Assembly: GCA_038087875.1 (NCBI GenBank)
Contig: CM075987.1
Span: 28,212,001-28,276,000, forward strand
Source: Malacoraja senta
Lineage: Eukaryota
Length of the DNA stretch: 64,000 nt
Reading direction: 5' to 3'
The notes under the pieces were generated by a model. That model did not search any database and was not told where the DNA came from. It saw only the letters and a program-made list of their open reading frames with translations. A program made the translations under genes and the position numbers. Shown piece after piece: positions 9,011 to 59,560 of the stretch (its first letter is position 1; each line of letters begins with the position of its first letter).

Positions 9011-9210
9011 NNNNNNNNNNNNNNNNNNNNNNNNNNNNNNNNNNNNNNNNNNNNNNNNNNNNNNNNNNNNNNNNNNNNNNNNNNNNNNNNNNNNNNNNNN
9101 NNNNNNNNNNNNNNNNNNNNNNNNNNNNNNNNNNNNNNNNNNNNNNNNNNNNNNNNNNNNNNNNNNNNNNNNNNNNNNNNNNNNNNNNNNNNNNNNNNNN
9201 NNNNNNNNNN
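9011..9210. other. Assembly gap (200 N)
   Basis: Run of N. Confidence 1.
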
Positions 9211-38159: not shown

Positions 38160-38359
38160 NNNNNNNNNNNNNNNNNNNNNNNNNNNNNNNNNNNNNNNNN
38201 NNNNNNNNNNNNNNNNNNNNNNNNNNNNNNNNNNNNNNNNNNNNNNNNNNNNNNNNNNNNNNNNNNNNNNNNNNNNNNNNNNNNNNNNNNNNNNNNNNNN
38301 NNNNNNNNNNNNNNNNNNNNNNNNNNNNNNNNNNNNNNNNNNNNNNNNNNNNNNNNNNN
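38160..38359. other. Assembly gap (200 N)
   Basis: Run of N. Confidence 1.
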
Positions 38360-44575: not shown

Positions 44576-52487
<7,912 letters not shown>

Positions 52488-52848
52488 TGTTGCTCTGCCT
52501 GGACACTGGACACATGCAAGGCTCGCTCCCCCCTCCTGCACCCATCCTCAGCCCCCCAGCCTGCTCCGACCTCCACTCTCCCCTGCCAGGTAGTTTGTCA
52601 GACACCAGCCTTTACACCTGAACTCTAGTGTTCAACAGAGAGAGAGATTCACAGATGTTTAGCGCCTCTCGTGTGTGGTAGCATTATGTTTTTGAATGAA
52701 TCAGACCAAGAGGAAATATAAAAGATTCAAGGGACTGAGTGGATGATGTTTGAAAGATTCTGTGTGTAACTGATTTTACAAAGGATGTGAGTTTATTGCA
52801 ATAGACAGAATCAGGGATTGTAAAATGAGCGAATGCAAAGGTGTTGTT

Positions 52849-52854
52849 AATAAA
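52849..52854 (+). terminator. Candidate ALAD polyadenylation signal
   Basis: First AATAAA after the stop codon; a second lies at ~52963. Confidence 0.55.
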
Positions 52855-54073
52855 TCATGTATCTGGGGCATTACTGCGCTGTATAAAACTGCAGTTGCCG
52901 CATGCCTGCCAGTACCATCTGTGTGTGAAACCATGTGGACAAATGAAATGGAATCCTCTTTTAATAAAACCAACAATGAGAAATGACATTGTGTAGCTGA
53001 CGTGGGAATTGTTCAGTGTTTGCATGCAGTGCCGCACATTAGTCAAACTGAAGGTGTAGATTGAATATTCCTTTGGTTCAGTGGTGTTGGTTGTCCACTG
53101 TGCCAAGTGGAACACCTTTATCCTGTTTTATCAGCTGTCATGTCATGTACCTCCAGACCAGCTGATCATGGCTTGCACAACCCTTCACATCTGGCACTCC
53201 CTCCCCGTCAGAGATGCCTTGCTTCCACTCTGTCTCTGGGTCCACAGGTGGCTGATGAGGGACCTGCAGAGGCAGTTGTGTGACGGGGGGGAGGTGGGGG
53301 GGGGGGGGGTTAGTGCATGACTCTGAACCCCTGCAGAGGAACAATAATCTTAGACCCCTGTGTGCAAATTGTAAGTGATTAGACTGCAAGAGATTGGTGC
53401 GTGAGTGGCCATTACCAGTCCTTCATAACTTTTGATGTTGGAGCCACTGGGCGGCAGTCATTGAGACTGGTCATTATGCTTCTTGGGGACTGGGATAATG
53501 GAGATACCTTGAAGCCGACAGGGTCAATAGACTGAAGGGAGAGATTGAAGATGTCAGTGAAGACTGGCCAGTTGATTGGTGCATAAGTCCAGAGTCCATC
53601 TGGACTTTCTGAGTGTTTCCCCTTGTTGAGAGCAGATCTAGCTTCTGCCACACGATGCTTGGGGCAGAGCCTGCGGGGGGGGGGGGGGGGGGCACCATTG
53701 GGGGATCTCTTCCTGTTCATCTTTACGTGGCCTTTATCTGCACCCAGTAGAGATGTATCGGCTTGAGGATCAACTGTAGTCAATGAGTGGCCTTTTTAGA
53801 GAGCGTTTTGTTTTGAACACATACTACCCTTCGAACATTGAAAAAAAACGAGTACAAAAAAAACAGGCAAAATACACAAATTTAATCCGAGAGCAGTTAG
53901 CCTGGTCAGGGTTGGGAACAAAATGGTAATTGTCCTCATCAGAAACGTCATAATTGCCATCCTCATCAATGTCCTGATTGTCATCACACTGATTACCCAC
54001 CAGGTCTGAGTCATTGTCTTCCTGGATAGGGTTATGCATAATCTCTTTCAAGCGGTCCATCTGTTTCAAAATG

Positions 54074-54213
54074 ATGTTCTTCTTGCGAATGGCATGCACA
54101 GCCTAAAGTTGTCGGACAACTTGTTCAATTTGATCTTATTTGATTGTGCACGCCAGGTTGATTGCATTCGTTGAAACAGGGCGGACCACGTGAAGGTTGC
54201 AATCTCCCACCCC
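54074..54213 (-). mobile_element. 140-bp interspersed insertion with 10-bp target duplication
   Basis: TTTCAAAATG at 54064-54073 and 54214-54223. Removing the insert restores the frame …KLNILK|QMDRLKE. Confidence 0.8.
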
Positions 54214-54359
54214 TTTCAAAATGTTCAGCTTCTCTTTCTCTAGACCTTTGGTCATACGATGGAGCTCAAAATGCTTCAAGATTGTTGATCAAATGTGGTT
54301 TGTCTTTCCAAAGTTGTGACCAAAGGCTTTGCACTTCGTCCTGATCTATAAAGATGTTA

Positions 54360-55797
54360 TTTCCTCTGTATGGATCAGCTTTACATGATGCTGCAGGTAG
54401 CGATCAATCAGAAACACCTTGTTACCTTCTGGGGGGGGGGCAAGGTCTTTCGCGCACCTCTTCATGCTGCTCTTGTATGTGTTTCTTAAGTCCGTCAACT
54501 CCTCTGTAAACAGCACAGCAACCGTTATACTGACATCGATACACGGTGGGGAAATCTTCCCTCTCCAAGTTTAAATTTGGTTTCCGGCCACGTTTTTGTC
54601 CAGATTGTTTCTTCACATCCTTAATATTACACTTCTTAACTGGTATCTTACTCTTCTTCCAATATGGTTGAAAAGACTCATCTGAAGAGCCATTCTTAAC
54701 TTTTGTTTCTCTGTCATCTTCACTTGATAAATACCTTTCAGAAAGATCACTGGACTCCAATCCATCCACAACATCATTTCCTATAGAACAAGATGCTTCA
54801 TTGCAGTTAACTGTTTTTTTTCACATTTAATGGTTGAGTTGCATCTTGTACCTGAACTTTTTCCCAAGAGCACTCTGTATATTCAGGATCTGAGCGCAAG
54901 AACATATCCTTCTTCAATGGGGATTCCCAGTTGTCCACATCCACCGACCTCAAAGTGGTTCCACTGTATGTACAAGGCTGAAAGTCTGCTAACACTGGGA
55001 CAGGTTGATGCTTTGCAACATTATCACCCTCACCATTTTCAGTCACTGTTCCATTCTGAGTTGAAAGGGTTATTGAACCATCCAGAACCCTCCAATTAGT
55101 CCTTAATTCTACTGGATGGGCACTTTCTCTCATTCAAAACAACGCTGCGACTTGAATGCATGTCCAGGATGTAACTGTGGCCCTCTGTTATCAGAGTTCT
55201 GAACAGTCCTTCCAATTGCTAGGATTCTGCCTGATTCACCTCTATCCCATTGCAGACATTGGACTTTGTCTCTGGAACTGGTTTGCTATAATGCTCAGAA
55301 CTATATTCTCCACACTAACCTTTCCTTTGCTCTACCTATTTTAGGTGAGCCTGGCTTGATTGCATTTATTCATGTTAATCCTTTGTGTCTTGCTGACACT
55401 GAAAAATGGTGCGATTCTTTAGACTCATCATTTAGCTGTTGAATAACTATTAACTGGGTTCCTGCTTAATTAAAGTTTCTATACTTCGCTGACTTGATTC
55501 AATCTCAATAGGTTTGTTTTTATCTGTATTCTGGGTCAAGGGATGAAGCATGGACATGAACATTCAAATTGTGAGCCTTCACGAACCGCTTCTCACATTG
55601 GTCACAAGCAAATTCAAGTTCAGCTTCTGTCTTGTGCTTGGTCATATGGTATTTCAAGGATCTCTTTGCCTGCATTGGAATCCACAAACTTCACACAGCA
55701 AAGGTTTTATTCCAGTATGGCTCATTTGGTGAACTGACAGTTGTTTCCGCTGTTTGATAGTCTGTCCACATTCATCACAAATGTAGTTTCTTTTCAC
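54360..55797 (-). pseudogene. ZNF276: Processed, frameshifted and circularly permuted ZNF276 copy
   Basis: 55797-55450 encodes RNYICDECGQT.KQRK…CEVCGFQCRQR/SLKYHMTKHK…FACDQC…AHNLNVH…HPLTQ…IKQEPS*. ~55400-54360 encodes …GHSYILD…SDLSE…SSDESFQPY…YRCQYNGCCAVYRGVDGLKKHIQEQHEEVRERPCP/…KVFLIDRYLQHHVKLIHTE. No introns; several frameshifts. Confidence 0.88.
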
Positions 55798-56384
55798 AAA
55801 TCGAATCCTTCTTTCTCCCAAGTTGTCCATCAGCGTTTGAAACCAGCATTCCTCTTCCTTCTCCATCAATGAAAACTGGCTGTCTGATTCATCCCAACGC
55901 AGCTCCTCACTTTGATCCCGGCTGGGATTTACCTCAATCCAGTTCTGTAACTGAGTTGCACTCAAAAATCAAGGCTTTTCAACTCCACAACCTGATTGCT
56001 CTCCTTCAGCTGCTGTGTGATTGAAGCGAGATGGTCATTTTCAGATTGGGCATTGGTGAGCACATTTCTCATCTGTTTCAGCTCTGTCTGTAGCTCGGGG
56101 ATAAGCTGCCACCTTTTTCTGGCTACTTCAAGAACCTGTGGTAATGGATCCATCTTGGTCAGTGTTATAAACGTAAGGACAGTTGTCAGCCTTATTCAGG
56201 ACGTCTTGCTGCAGGGGTGTTTCCCCAAGTCTAGCTCATCTTGGCCAACCTCAGGATAAAAAGTAGGGTCAATAGCCCCATTTTCCTTTCTTGGTTCTCC
56301 TCCATTTACAGTCAATCGTATCAGATGTCTTCAACGGGAGTAATCTTCAATCTTCACGGCGGTTGGTGTCGTAGTAGCACCTGG

Positions 56385-57136
56385 TACTATCTAAATGGCG
56401 TCAAGTTGGGAAAAGGAGAAGTACAATTGGAACTGGGGGTCCTTGTACATCAGTCTTTGAAAGTAAGCATGCAGGTACAGCAGGCAGTGAAGAAAGTGAA
56501 TGGCATGTTGGCCTTTATAACAAGAGGAATCGAATATAGGAGCAAAGAGGTCCTTCTGCAGTTGTACAGAGCCCTAGTGAGACCACACCTGGAGTATTGT
56601 GTGCAGTTTTGGTCCCCTAATTTGAGGAAGGACATTCTTGCTATTGAGGGAGTGCAGCGTAGGTTTACAAGGTTAATTCCCGGGATGGCGGGACTGTCAT
56701 ATGCTGAGAGAATGGAGCAGCTGGGCTTGTACAATCTGGAGTTTAGAAGGATGAGAGGGGATCTCATTGAAACATATAAGATTGTTAAGGGCTTGGACAC
56801 ACTAGAGGCAGGAAACATGTTCCCGATGTTGGGTGAGTCCAGAACTGGGGGCCACAGTTTAAGAATAAGGAGTAAGCCATTTAGAACGGAAACGAGGAAA
56901 CACTTTCTCACAGAGAGTGGTGAGTCTGTGGAATTCTCTGCCTCAGAGGGCGGTGGAGGCAGGTTCTCTGGATGCTTTCAAGAGAGAGCTAGATAGGGCT
57001 CTTAAAAATAGCGGAGTCAGGGGAAATGGGGAGAAGGCAGGAGTGGGGTACTGATTGGGGATGATCAGCCATGATCACATTGAATGGCGGTGCTGGCTCA
57101 AAGGGCCAAATGGCTTACTCTTGCACCTATTGTCTA
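56385..57136 (+). mobile_element. 5'-truncated CR1 (same subfamily as 34505-35346)
   Basis: YYLNGVKLGKGEVQ…RPHLEYCVQFWSP… through to the CTATTGTCTA tail. Confidence 0.95.
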
Positions 57137-59159
57137 AAAGGTAAGAAATAGGAAAAAAACGTAAAGTTAAGAGAAAACAAAGAATAAACAATTATTTTTC
57201 ATAGATTGCAAGCTCATTCAATGACATCCTATTTAATCTGACAAGAGGCATATATATGAATATATAAATATAGCCTGGGACTGTATCCCATATCTGTCAA
57301 GTATCCCGATAGGCTTTGGGAGAAATTAAACACAGCAAAATCTTGAACACAGGAAAATCAAGCTGCTAGTATCTTGGTAGCATAGCCTTGAAAAGAACAC
57401 TGAGCACTCTAGTTAGATAAGAAACAGAACTTGGATGAGTGACAGCTTGAAAGAACCTTTTAAAATACCTTTTTGGAGAGCTTTTGGTTTTGAACACATA
57501 CTACCCTTCGAACATTTAAAGAAAACAAGTACAAAACAACAGGCAAAATCCACAAACTTAATCCGAGAGCAGTTAGCAAAAGTGGCGTAGCCCCCCTCGT
57601 TTCCAAACAAAAATCGTGCAAAACATTAGAGATGTCTCTCTGTATTCATTTTACATTCCCCTCCCTTATCTGACAATAGCCGTTCTGTTTAAAATAATCT
57701 TTGTTTCTATGGGAACCAATTTGCAGAATTACCAAGCTAGGGAATTCCCCAGGCAGATTTTGTGAACTAGGACTTGGAGGTTTGCAAAAGTCATCGTCTT
57801 TGTTGGAGTGAAAATTTAAAATGAACAAAGGGAGTAGTTTAATGTAATGGTGGGCGGGTTAATGTTCAAACTGGGAGTGGTCTGAGCTGTGATTGGACAG
57901 TCTACGCCAAATGTCAAAGTTTGTTTCTTAAAAGCGGATATCAACAAAAACTGTTAAAGGTAAAACCATGGCAATCTTTAATTGATTCGTCAGACGGGAG
58001 TGGCAATAGATCTACAATGAGCACAAACGTTGCTCAGTGCTTCTCGGGCTCCCACTCTCAGAACAAAGGCGAGTTAGCACAATTATACATTTTTCTTATC
58101 AGTAAAACACTCCAACCAAGTCTGAATATGGCATGACTGAAAGATTCTGTAGCCTTTCACAATATAGGAAAGCTGGGTCCAAATCAAGCTCATCCAATAA
58201 CAAGTTATTACTTATCTCTGGAGCATCAGCTATTTTTTTCAATCTTAGCTTCTTTATGGCCTTGAAAAGAAGCACATGTTATTACTGCAGGCTGCCATCT
58301 TAATGTCTTTATTGAAAAGACAACCTGTCCTTCATATTGTGTTCCATATAATTTACAATGTCATTCGGACTTGGCACCGAGCCATTCTTTTATTCTACTA
58401 GTCCATACTTTTGTAGAACGACTCCATTTCAGATTTGACTATTAGCTCTTTCATTACTACCCATTAATAAATGCCTTTAACTAGATAGATAAATACAGGA
58501 GGGAGAAATGAATACAATATATTGGTGGCAGCAGGCACAGCTGGAATGTATCGCTACATCAGTCGTATCGAAGCCTGTACATTCCATTCGATTATGATGT
58601 ACAATTGGAATGTACGGTAGCAACTACCGTAGCAACTTTGTGTTGGTGGACATTTTCCCAAGGTTTCGGCATAGTTCCCCAATCCTGAAAGGATGTTCTT
58701 GAATAAACATTTTAATTAATCCCAGGCTGGCAATGTGAAAAAATGCACCACTTCATCAAGAAGTGCTAAGTTTGCCAGCTGTAATGTCATACCTGGTGCA
58801 ATTTGGATAAACACCAGGAAGACCAGATGGTTGATGTAATGCTGTTTTGCTAAAAAAAAAAAGACCAAAATTGATGTCAATCCACGAGCAAAAAAACTGA
58901 TGGCTCGTTATTTCACTCTGTGATCGCGATGTACATTGCATTTCAGTTCTATGTTTCATAGAGAAACAAAGAACTGCAGGTGTGTGTTCATACACAAAAA
59001 GACAAAGTGCTGGAGTAACTCAGCGGGACAGGCAGCTTCTCTGGAGAGAAGGAATGGGTGACGTTATGGTCGAGACCCTTCTTCAGACCGAGAGGGCAGG
59101 AGAGACATAGACGGTGTAGTGGACAGAGCCATGCTGTGCCTGTGAGAGGTAGGTGCCAG

Positions 59160-59503: not shown

Positions 59504-59560
59504 ATGCGGGAGATCGTGCACCTGCAGGCCGGCCAGTGCGGCAACCAGATCGGGGCCAAG
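59504..59560 (+). CDS. TUBB4B: Beta-tubulin first coding exon (probably TUBB4B); remaining exons lie outside the window
   Basis: MREIVHLQAGQCGNQIGAK followed by a GT donor after codon 19, the canonical vertebrate beta-tubulin intron-1 position. Isotype is inferred from Leu7 and linkage to SSNA1/TPRN. Beta-tubulin itself is near-certain; the isotype is less so. Confidence 0.8.

What the first reader, a model, noticed from the sequence alone, without database searches (positions are those of the whole stretch)
54360..55797. Circularly permuted, intronless ZNF276 copy: possible trace of a circular RNA/cDNA intermediate
Seen: on the minus strand the last zinc fingers and the natural stop (RNYIC…IKQEPS*, 55797-55450) come first. 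After ~50 nt they are followed, in the same orientation, by the middle of the protein, which ends at …KLIHTEE (54360). The insert therefore ends where it begins (HTE|xRNYIC), with only a few nt of overlap (GAGGAAA vs GTGAAAA). Known: vertebrate ZNF276 is multi-exonic, so an intronless copy is RNA-derived. Ordinary LINE retroposition gives colinear, 5'-truncated or 5'-inverted copies, whereas circRNA-derived pseudogenes show this order swap. Inference: a circle (back-spliced RNA or circularised cDNA) was opened inside the finger array and integrated. Caveat: the internal join at ~55400-55450 follows the last exon, so back-splicing would need a cryptic donor in the 3'UTR.
Basis: partly seen in the sequence, partly recalled or inferred. 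Interest (0 to 1): 0.8.

Follow-up and report, generated by a model that had tools for sequence, protein, structure and literature searches.

The report
Amplified one-turn ZNF276 cargo, not back-spliced
A dead, intron-free piece of a skate zinc-finger gene lies with its tail before its middle, joined at a 7-letter match that is not a splice join and nested among scraps of three other genes in a unit repeated in several organisms, so it was likely written by a retroelement's copying enzyme looping once round an ordinary messenger RNA, and its spread may explain why this gene ranks among the most 'retrocopied' in sharks and rays.

Summary
The order swap is real and exact. Parent-type contigs join 54360 straight to 55790-55793 with 3 nt of overlap, and both halves differ about 5% from that parent. 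Three details need correcting. The spacer is about 265 nt of likely 3'UTR with a repeat, not 50 nt. The closing join is a 7-nt microhomology in mid-exon with no GT donor, so back-splicing is not supported. The insert is not a lone retrocopy. It sits at a 6-7-nt shared word inside a captured EFCAB4B-like mRNA piece, which is itself order-swapped and carries BICD2-like pieces. All of this lies inside a thrombospondin piece, all sense, between 110-bp direct repeats. Contigs from other organisms cross the outer joins, and four DNA runs show many variant copies. Best reading (0.55): reverse-transcriptase template switching in a retroelement looped once round a linear mRNA, and the carrier then multiplied. 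A microhomology-closed RNA or cDNA circle (0.2) leaves the same trace and is not excluded. LTR class is not shown here. It is a new variant of LTR-mediated retroposition that mimics circRNA pseudogenes. A 2026 preprint ranks ZNF276 among the five most retrocopied chondrichthyan genes; cargo amplification may explain that.

The parts
57468..57577 (-). terminal direct repeat R1 (110 bp), ending at a GT donor-like site
   Evidence: 9 mismatches and 1 gap in 111 columns against R2; sharp edges
57137..57467 (-). intron-like stretch (GT start, pyrimidine tract and AG end), by eye
   Evidence: sequence; inferred; no Pfam hit in six frames
56385..57136 (+). later LINE insertion, antisense to the cargo (CR1-like: label recalled; Pfam gave no RT hit)
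   Evidence: several copies in the window, best 93%
56210..56384 (-). unidentified piece
   Evidence: no credible hit
56149..56208 (-). thrombospondin-2-like type 3 repeat piece (2rhp chain 256-275)
   Evidence: whole-sequence E 1.7e-9, best stretch i-E 9e-4
56127..56150 (-). EFCAB4B-like aa 450-457 (short; weakest piece)
   Evidence: 4 of 500 shuffles reach the score
55977..56127 (-). BICD2-like aa 72-79, then aa 103-144
   Evidence: 90% over 42 aa; 0 of 500 shuffles
55927..55962 (-). EFCAB4B-like aa 460-471, placed before aa 110 (second order swap)
   Evidence: joint 55959 to 54269, goes back 1691, in X15
55809..55929 (-). EFCAB4B-like aa 110-148, left half of the ZNF276 target; ends in the shared 6-7-nt word
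   Evidence: uninterrupted form joined in X15, X17, X18 and X2
55794..55808 (-). 15-nt filler, an imperfect repeat of the start of segment A (last 8 nt exact)
   Evidence: position 55805 covered by 9-16 variant contigs in each of 4 DNA runs
55450..55793 (-). ZNF276 segment A: aa 518-631 and stop; frameshifted
   Evidence: X17 rec 9; table 4
55181..55449 (-). likely ZNF276 3'UTR, its distal part a high-copy repeat fragment (L2-like: label recalled)
   Evidence: X17 recs 9, 14, 13 tile it while X17 does not cover the filler; depth peak
55181..55187 (-). 7-nt microhomology CAGAGGG closing the turn (UTR repeat to mid-exon aa 241)
   Evidence: parent 5' contig fits to 55187 (X17 rec 12); repeat contigs fit to 55181 (table 7)
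54360..55187 (-). ZNF276 segment B: aa 241-517; frameshifts and an in-frame stop
54269..54358 (-). EFCAB4B-like aa 150-179, right half of the target
54214..54267 (-). EFCAB4B-like aa 328-345
54073..54213 (.). later high-copy short insertion with a 9-bp target duplication (SINE-like, inferred)
   Evidence: very high depth and loose ends at 54213
54040..54072 (-). EFCAB4B-like aa 343-353
53902..54042 (-). thrombospondin type 3 repeat piece (2rhp chain 290-335)
   Evidence: E 1.3e-6 (THBS1) and 2.9e-5 (THBS2)
53791..53901 (-). terminal direct repeat R2

Best explanation
The insert is a dead, spliced, one-turn permuted piece of ZNF276 carried as cargo in a multi-copy mosaic element, and it likely arose when a retroelement's reverse transcriptase switched templates three times on one linear ZNF276 mRNA. 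Shown: order, exact ends, both microhomologies, filler, nesting, sense orientation, many variant copies. Not shown: the enzyme, the carrier's class, and whether the template was linear.
For: Exact permutation against one parent contig. Short shared words at both the closing join and the insertion point (7 nt or more in 85 of 200,000 random joins). No GT at the closing join (table 7). No poly(A) tract or long target duplication at the insert. Four isoform-derived exon borders are crossed without introns. Four host genes, all sense, nested like successive captures; in one skate ZNF276 and EFCAB4B-like lie on different contigs. EFCAB4B-like also jumps backwards (aa 471 to 110). The filler repeats the start of A at 16 of 19 positions; 0 of 7,418 other 30-mers and 81 of 20,000 shuffles reach that score. 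110-bp terminal repeats. Depth over the cargo is like depth over its flanks in 4 of 4 DNA runs. Tan et al. 2016 (PMC5131818, passages) report a median 6-bp microsimilarity, 2-26-bp de novo fillers, a four-gene mouse chimera and secondary amplification. Houseley and Tollervey 2010 (PMC2923612, passages) show RT making exon-shuffled joins at short homologies in vitro.
Against: A circle closed by microhomology and copied once, or a tandem-dimer template, gives the same sequence. TG...CA ends, a primer-binding site, a purine tract before R2 and a target duplication were not found at the repeats, and no gag or pol remnant was found. The inner join is bridged by only one listed contig, with 30 nt on the short side. 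That the repeat fragment lies in the parent's UTR rests on tiling contigs of one run; X17 rec 13 differs at 15 of 140 positions. Six of the 16 filler matches are the shared word and may be host. Four genes all in sense has a 1-in-8 chance. The EFCAB4B swap is not exact (aa 354-449 missing). Summed depth is not a copy number.
Confidence: 0.55

Rival explanations
1. A true circle (cDNA circularised at the 7-nt match, or a non-spliced circular RNA) or a tandem-dimer template was entered and left at the word shared with the carrier, giving one full turn.
For: Exact one-turn ends; 7-nt closure; the same word at both outer joins, as a single crossover would give. Mouse circRFWD2 pseudogenes are LTR-flanked and number 33 or more (PMC4897178, whole main text).
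Against: It needs an extra, unobserved molecule. The other joins in the mosaic (BICD2 79 to 103, EFCAB4B 179 to 328) are forward skips that need no circle. Joins at short homologies are typical RT products (PMC2923612).
Confidence: 0.2
2. DNA route: an older colinear ZNF276 retrocopy looped out between the two 7-nt sites as eccDNA and re-entered a break in a carrier copy by microhomology-mediated end joining.
For: A templated filler fits polymerase-theta joining (own knowledge). eccDNA re-insertion gives permuted duplicates (PMC7188851, passages; PMC3245284 and PMC7450558, listings only).
Against: It needs a precursor retrocopy that was not seen. All cargo is exonic and sense. No colinear 55790-to-54360 joint is among the 15 listed of 20 DNA joints (5 hidden).
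Confidence: 0.13
3. Tandem duplication of a colinear cargo followed by deletions, or a DNA-transposon or Helitron carrier that gathered the pieces by break repair.
For: Deletions are common in the mosaic. The carrier class is not shown. Bat Helitrons amplify retrogenes (PMC4224331, passages).
Against: Zero gap, and the permutation point coincides with the word shared with the host piece. No TIR pair or Helitron-type hairpin lies at the repeat ends. Four of the bat cases kept poly(A) and TSDs.
Confidence: 0.08
4. Back-spliced circRNA pseudogene.
For: Order swap, no introns, no poly(A); an AG lies in the shared word.
Against: The join is mid-exon to mid-UTR-repeat; no GT or GC follows any cut in the ambiguous stretch in the repeat family (table 7); the 7-nt homology is unexplained.
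Confidence: 0.04

Closest known systems
LTR-mediated retroposition chimeras (Tan et al. 2016, PMC5131818; mouse 'Super' retrocopy; maize Bs1 as cited there)
   Same: Partial spliced mRNA pieces, about 6-bp microsimilarity, short de novo filler, no poly(A) or TSD, several parent genes, secondary amplification
   Different: One cargo is an exact one-turn permutation and a second is order-swapped; cargo nests inside cargo; apparently far more copies than Bs1's 1-5; LTR hallmarks not shown here. The main text has 0 hits for 'circular', 'colinear' or 'rearrang'; supplements not read.
circRNA-derived pseudogenes (Dong et al. 2016, PMC4897178; circRFWD2)
   Same: Non-colinear, intronless, tail-less, multi-copy, linked to repeats
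   Different: Those keep an exon-exon back-splice join; here the join is a mid-exon to UTR microhomology. The paper itself notes that RT crossing open-ended RNA could give non-colinear joins.
eccDNA-mediated permuted duplications (Takahashi and Innan 2020, PMC7188851; tilapia vasa, PMC3245284)
   Same: AB to BA order with meeting ends
   Different: Those are genomic DNA segments; this is spliced mRNA within a mosaic of mRNAs.
Helitron-amplified retrogenes in bats (Thomas et al. 2014, PMC4224331)
   Same: Sequential capture and amplification of cDNA pieces in a vertebrate
   Different: Four of those cases have poly(A) and TSDs; this unit has direct terminal repeats and no Helitron ends were found.

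Membership tests
circRNA-derived pseudogene | non-colinear order of mRNA parts | tested here: met
circRNA-derived pseudogene | reversed join at exon borders or splice sites | tested here: not met
   aa 241 lies between borders at aa 184 and 288 in 4 isoform pairs; no GT in the repeat family's continuation; the parent's own UTR letters were not read
circRNA-derived pseudogene | the circle is expressed (RNase-R resistant) | not testable with these tools
   contigs only
LTR-mediated retrocopy | intronless partial mRNA | tested here: met
   4 isoform-derived borders crossed; parent introns not seen directly
LTR-mediated retrocopy | microsimilarity or short filler at switch points | tested here: met
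   7 nt, 6-7 nt and a 15-nt filler
LTR-mediated retrocopy | no poly(A) tail or L1-type TSD | tested here: met
LTR-mediated retrocopy | flanked by two LTRs (TG...CA, primer site, purine tract, 4-6-bp TSD) | tested here: inconclusive
   110-bp direct repeats present; the hallmarks were not found at their ends; purine-rich runs precede R1, not R2
LTR-mediated retrocopy | remnants of internal gag or pol | tested here: not met
   no Pfam hit in 15 read-through frames or in flanking ORFs
LTR-mediated retrocopy | secondary amplification with shared switch points | tested here: met
   joins crossed in other organisms; 9-16 variant contigs over the filler per DNA run
L1-type processed pseudogene | colinear or 5'-inverted, poly(A), TSD | tested here: not met
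Helitron or Pack-TIR capture | TIRs, or hairpin plus CTRR at the end | tested here: inconclusive
   none at the repeat ends, but the true outer limits are unknown
Retrozyme or Penelope-like pLTR | hammerhead ribozyme in the repeat | tested here: not met
   Rfam scan of 52500-59000 gave 2 hits, both far below cut-off

The most novel reading that the evidence does not exclude
A skate retroelement family habitually writes its mRNA cargo as one-turn loops (ZNF276 exact, EFCAB4B-like a second, later eroded case). It thereby makes circRNA-like fossils from linear RNA in the germline, and by copying one capture tens to hundreds of times it creates the reported top ranking of ZNF276, and perhaps of other odd genes, among chondrichthyan retrocopies.
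Probability: 0.3. Interest if true: 0.7.

Novelty: new variant of a known kind. Interest (0 to 1): 0.5.

Why it matters
First, it shows that a permuted, tail-less retrocopy is not by itself a circRNA fossil: the join has to be read at base level. Second, a 2026 preprint on 244 vertebrate genomes (10.64898/2026.06.26.734816; passages and section 6 read, supplements closed) lists ZNF276 among the five most retrocopied genes in cartilaginous fishes, within a model of germline expression plus selective filtering. If most of those copies share the breakpoints seen here, they are one capture amplified as cargo, and retrocopy counts in such genomes partly measure transposon activity. That can be tested at once on public assemblies. 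Third, the nested cargo records an order of captures that could date the carrier across skates. There is no sign of function: the ZNF276 piece has several frameshifts and a stop.

Tried and rejected
No genome is held, so copies and the parent locus could not be read directly. A metagenome scan for the terminal repeat gave 0 matches. The piece 56210-56384 stayed unidentified: the 5 hits are repeat-inflated, unrelated proteins; the Atlas gave hypothetical clusters with low recognition; PDB gave nothing credible. No tRNA in the window. No stable fold round the inner join (z 0.52), and that test folds the product, not the template. A 13-bp match at 52751 and 58138 was considered as an outer target duplication and set aside: the left copy is next to ALAD's 3' end and about one such match in 20-30 is expected by chance (rough estimate). 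My first guess that the EFCAB4B piece was an exact 240-nt permutation was dropped when P0019 showed aa 179 and 460 far apart. A first guess of myosin tail for 55977-56102 was replaced by BICD2. X20 (share 0.06) and the other unlaid runs were not used: 8 of 21 listed runs were laid. Look-ups of earlier findings by place and by sequence gave nothing. Paper searches found no description of this element or of a one-turn, microhomology-closed cargo; subscription journals and supplements were not covered.

Full report
Setting. The window is skate-like DNA: the best ZNF276 matches are Amblyraja and Leucoraja proteins, 87% identical over the 132-aa query. The feature lies between ALAD, which ends near 52490, and a beta-tubulin gene starting near 59505. 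No other part of ZNF276 lies in the window. No genome is held, so evidence on parents and copies comes from 8 of 21 listed public runs, all held as contigs.

The observation. On the minus strand, aa 518-631 and the stop of ZNF276 (P0001 numbering) come first, then aa 242-517. In runs X17 and X18 a contig reads 55790 and then 54360, with 3 letters fitting either side. X17 record 9 holds both halves in parent order, so both come from one gene. They are equally diverged: 20/378 against 26/531 and 11/217, p=0.78. The copy has several frameshifts and an in-frame stop. Four pairs of shark and skate isoforms give exon borders at aa 183/184, 288, 341, 365 and 549/550. The last four fall inside the insert, near 55046, 54890, 54817 and 55695, with no intron, and DNA contigs cross them (X2 recs 18 and 21, X1 rec 6). 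The parent's introns were not seen directly.

The inner join. X17 contigs tile the stretch from the stop to 55181 and beyond (recs 9, 14, 13), and X17's depth near 55794-55814 leaves no room for cover of the filler. I therefore read this stretch as the parent's 3'UTR, though on one run only. Its distal part is a very high-copy repeat. The parent's 5' contig fits up to 55187 and the repeat family fits down to 55181, so the sides share the 7-nt word CAGAGGG. Random joins of these sequences share 7 nt or more in 85 of 200,000 trials. The repeat family continues without GT or GC at any possible cut (table 7), and aa 241 is mid-exon. This is a microhomology join, not a back-splice. Only one listed contig crosses it (X19 rec 28), with 30 nt on the short side.

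The outer joins. The flanks are an EFCAB4B-like (CRACR2A-type, name equivalence recalled) mRNA piece, aa 110-148 on the left and aa 150-179 on the right. Its uninterrupted form is joined in X15, X17, X18 and X2. The left flank ends in AAAGAA and segment A starts with the same word. Most DNA contigs differ from the window at 54359 and 54364, so that B's end carries it too. Host and cargo thus share 6-7 nt at the crossing point. The word occurs only twice in the 1,434-nt insert on the window's letters, so leaving where it entered is favoured by homology alone. A 15-nt filler lies at the left join. With the word, it matches the start of A at 16 of 19 positions; 0 of 7,418 other 30-mers and 81 of 20,000 shuffles reach that score. 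Six of those letters may be host; the last eight are an exact copy.

The carrier. Reading outwards, the unit is a nest. Thrombospondin type 3 repeats lie outermost (chain 256-275 left, 290-335 right). Inside them lies EFCAB4B-like sequence in the order aa 450-457, 460-471, 110-179, 328-353. BICD2-like aa 72-79 and 103-144 sit between 457 and 460, and ZNF276 sits at 148/149. All pieces are sense. EFCAB4B-like is therefore also order-swapped, though aa 354-449 are absent. In Rhinoraja, ZNF276 and EFCAB4B-like lie on contigs of different length. Direct repeats of 110 bp, 91% alike, bracket the nest. A LINE piece and a short element with a 9-bp target duplication inserted later. TG...CA ends, a primer site, a purine tract before R2, an outer TSD and gag or pol remnants were not found, so LTR class is not shown.

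Copy number. In 4 of 4 DNA runs, labelled as four organisms, median summed depth is similar over segment B, segment A and the flanks: 5555/3028/8081, 1499/941/1093, 1018/983/1044 and 16111/5294/9300. Single listed contigs go as low as 6-40. Summed depth is not a copy number. The firmer signs are 9-16 variant contigs over the filler in each run, three distinct X2 contigs across the left join, and no parent-order joint among the 15 of 20 DNA joints listed. Tens of copies or more per genome is my rough inference. Outer joins are also crossed in X15 and X18, whose RNA label is a guess, so transcription is only hinted.

Mechanism. A reverse transcriptase copying carrier RNA jumps at the shared word onto ZNF276 mRNA, copies to aa 241, jumps at the 7-nt word to the UTR, and copies until the template ends where RNase H cut at entry. 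It stutters and returns to the carrier. All these steps are inferred. They explain the exact turn, both microhomologies and a filler only at the last join, with one linear RNA. A microhomology-closed circle or tandem dimer read once gives the same sequence, and my data cannot separate them (0.55 against 0.2). A DNA route through an older retrocopy (0.13), duplication-deletion or a DNA carrier (0.08) and back-splicing (0.04) fit less well.

Literature. Tan et al. 2016 (PMC5131818; passages) describe microsimilarity, fillers, multi-gene chimeras and secondary copying; the main text has no hit for 'circular', 'colinear' or 'rearrang'. Dong et al. 2016 (PMC4897178; whole main text) define circRNA pseudogenes by back-splice joins and note an RT alternative. 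Takahashi and Innan 2020 (passages), Thomas et al. 2014 (passages) and Houseley and Tollervey 2010 (passages) frame the rivals. A 2026 preprint (passages and section 6) names ZNF276 among the top five retrocopied genes of cartilaginous fishes and has no hit for 'permut'. Nine searches found no account of this element. Supplements were not read and may bear on novelty.

Earlier notes. My reading was logged. later showed three notes on the same permuted cargo, one in this genome and two in others, with the same preferred mechanism. They are unchecked AI notes: they fit multi-copy spread but add no independent support for the mechanism, and I could not confirm their LTR label. This report documents the four-gene nest, the second order swap, the filler, the depth in four DNA runs and the link to the preprint; the short notes I saw do not mention these, apart from a second captured gene and spliced host fragments.

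Verdict. A real and unusual structure, non-functional, a new variant of template-switch capture that mimics a circRNA fossil. Interest 0.5.

Noticed in passing
window 57468-57655 (minus): Two purine-rich runs (about 57670-57656, followed by TGT, and about 57604-57591) lie upstream of R1, where a 3' LTR would have one, while R2 has none; R1 ends at a GT donor-like site and R2 is followed by different sequence. The unit may be part of a tandem or rearranged element, or R2 may be a spliced-exon copy.
   Followed up: partly
window 56210-56384: Unidentified piece with long stop-poor frames just after the acceptor-like AG; possibly a fifth captured mRNA.
   Followed up: partly
window 53415-53790 (minus): Decayed LINE reverse-transcriptase-like fragment (L2/Rex type, recalled from its look; Pfam and PDB gave no hit) directly after R2.
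   Followed up: partly
window 50738-52490 and from 59505: ALAD exons and the first exon of a beta-tubulin gene flank the element, both on the plus strand.
   Followed up: yes
window 48814-49188 and 51474-51771: Tandem arrays: a 25-bp unit, and an array built of 11-, 16- and 27-bp steps, within or near ALAD.
   Followed up: no
window 9011-9210 and 38160-38359: Two 200-N assembly gaps, far from the feature.
   Followed up: no
joints, e.g. 54556-54871, 54955-55160, 55275-55492, 55376-55809: Single contigs in DNA runs show internal deletions of the cargo, so copies decay independently.
   Followed up: no
preprint 10.64898/2026.06.26.734816, section 6: The other top chondrichthyan parents (MIPOL1, SUDS3, SDF2L1, SLU7) and amphibian PIWIL2 may also be single captures amplified as cargo.
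   Followed up: no
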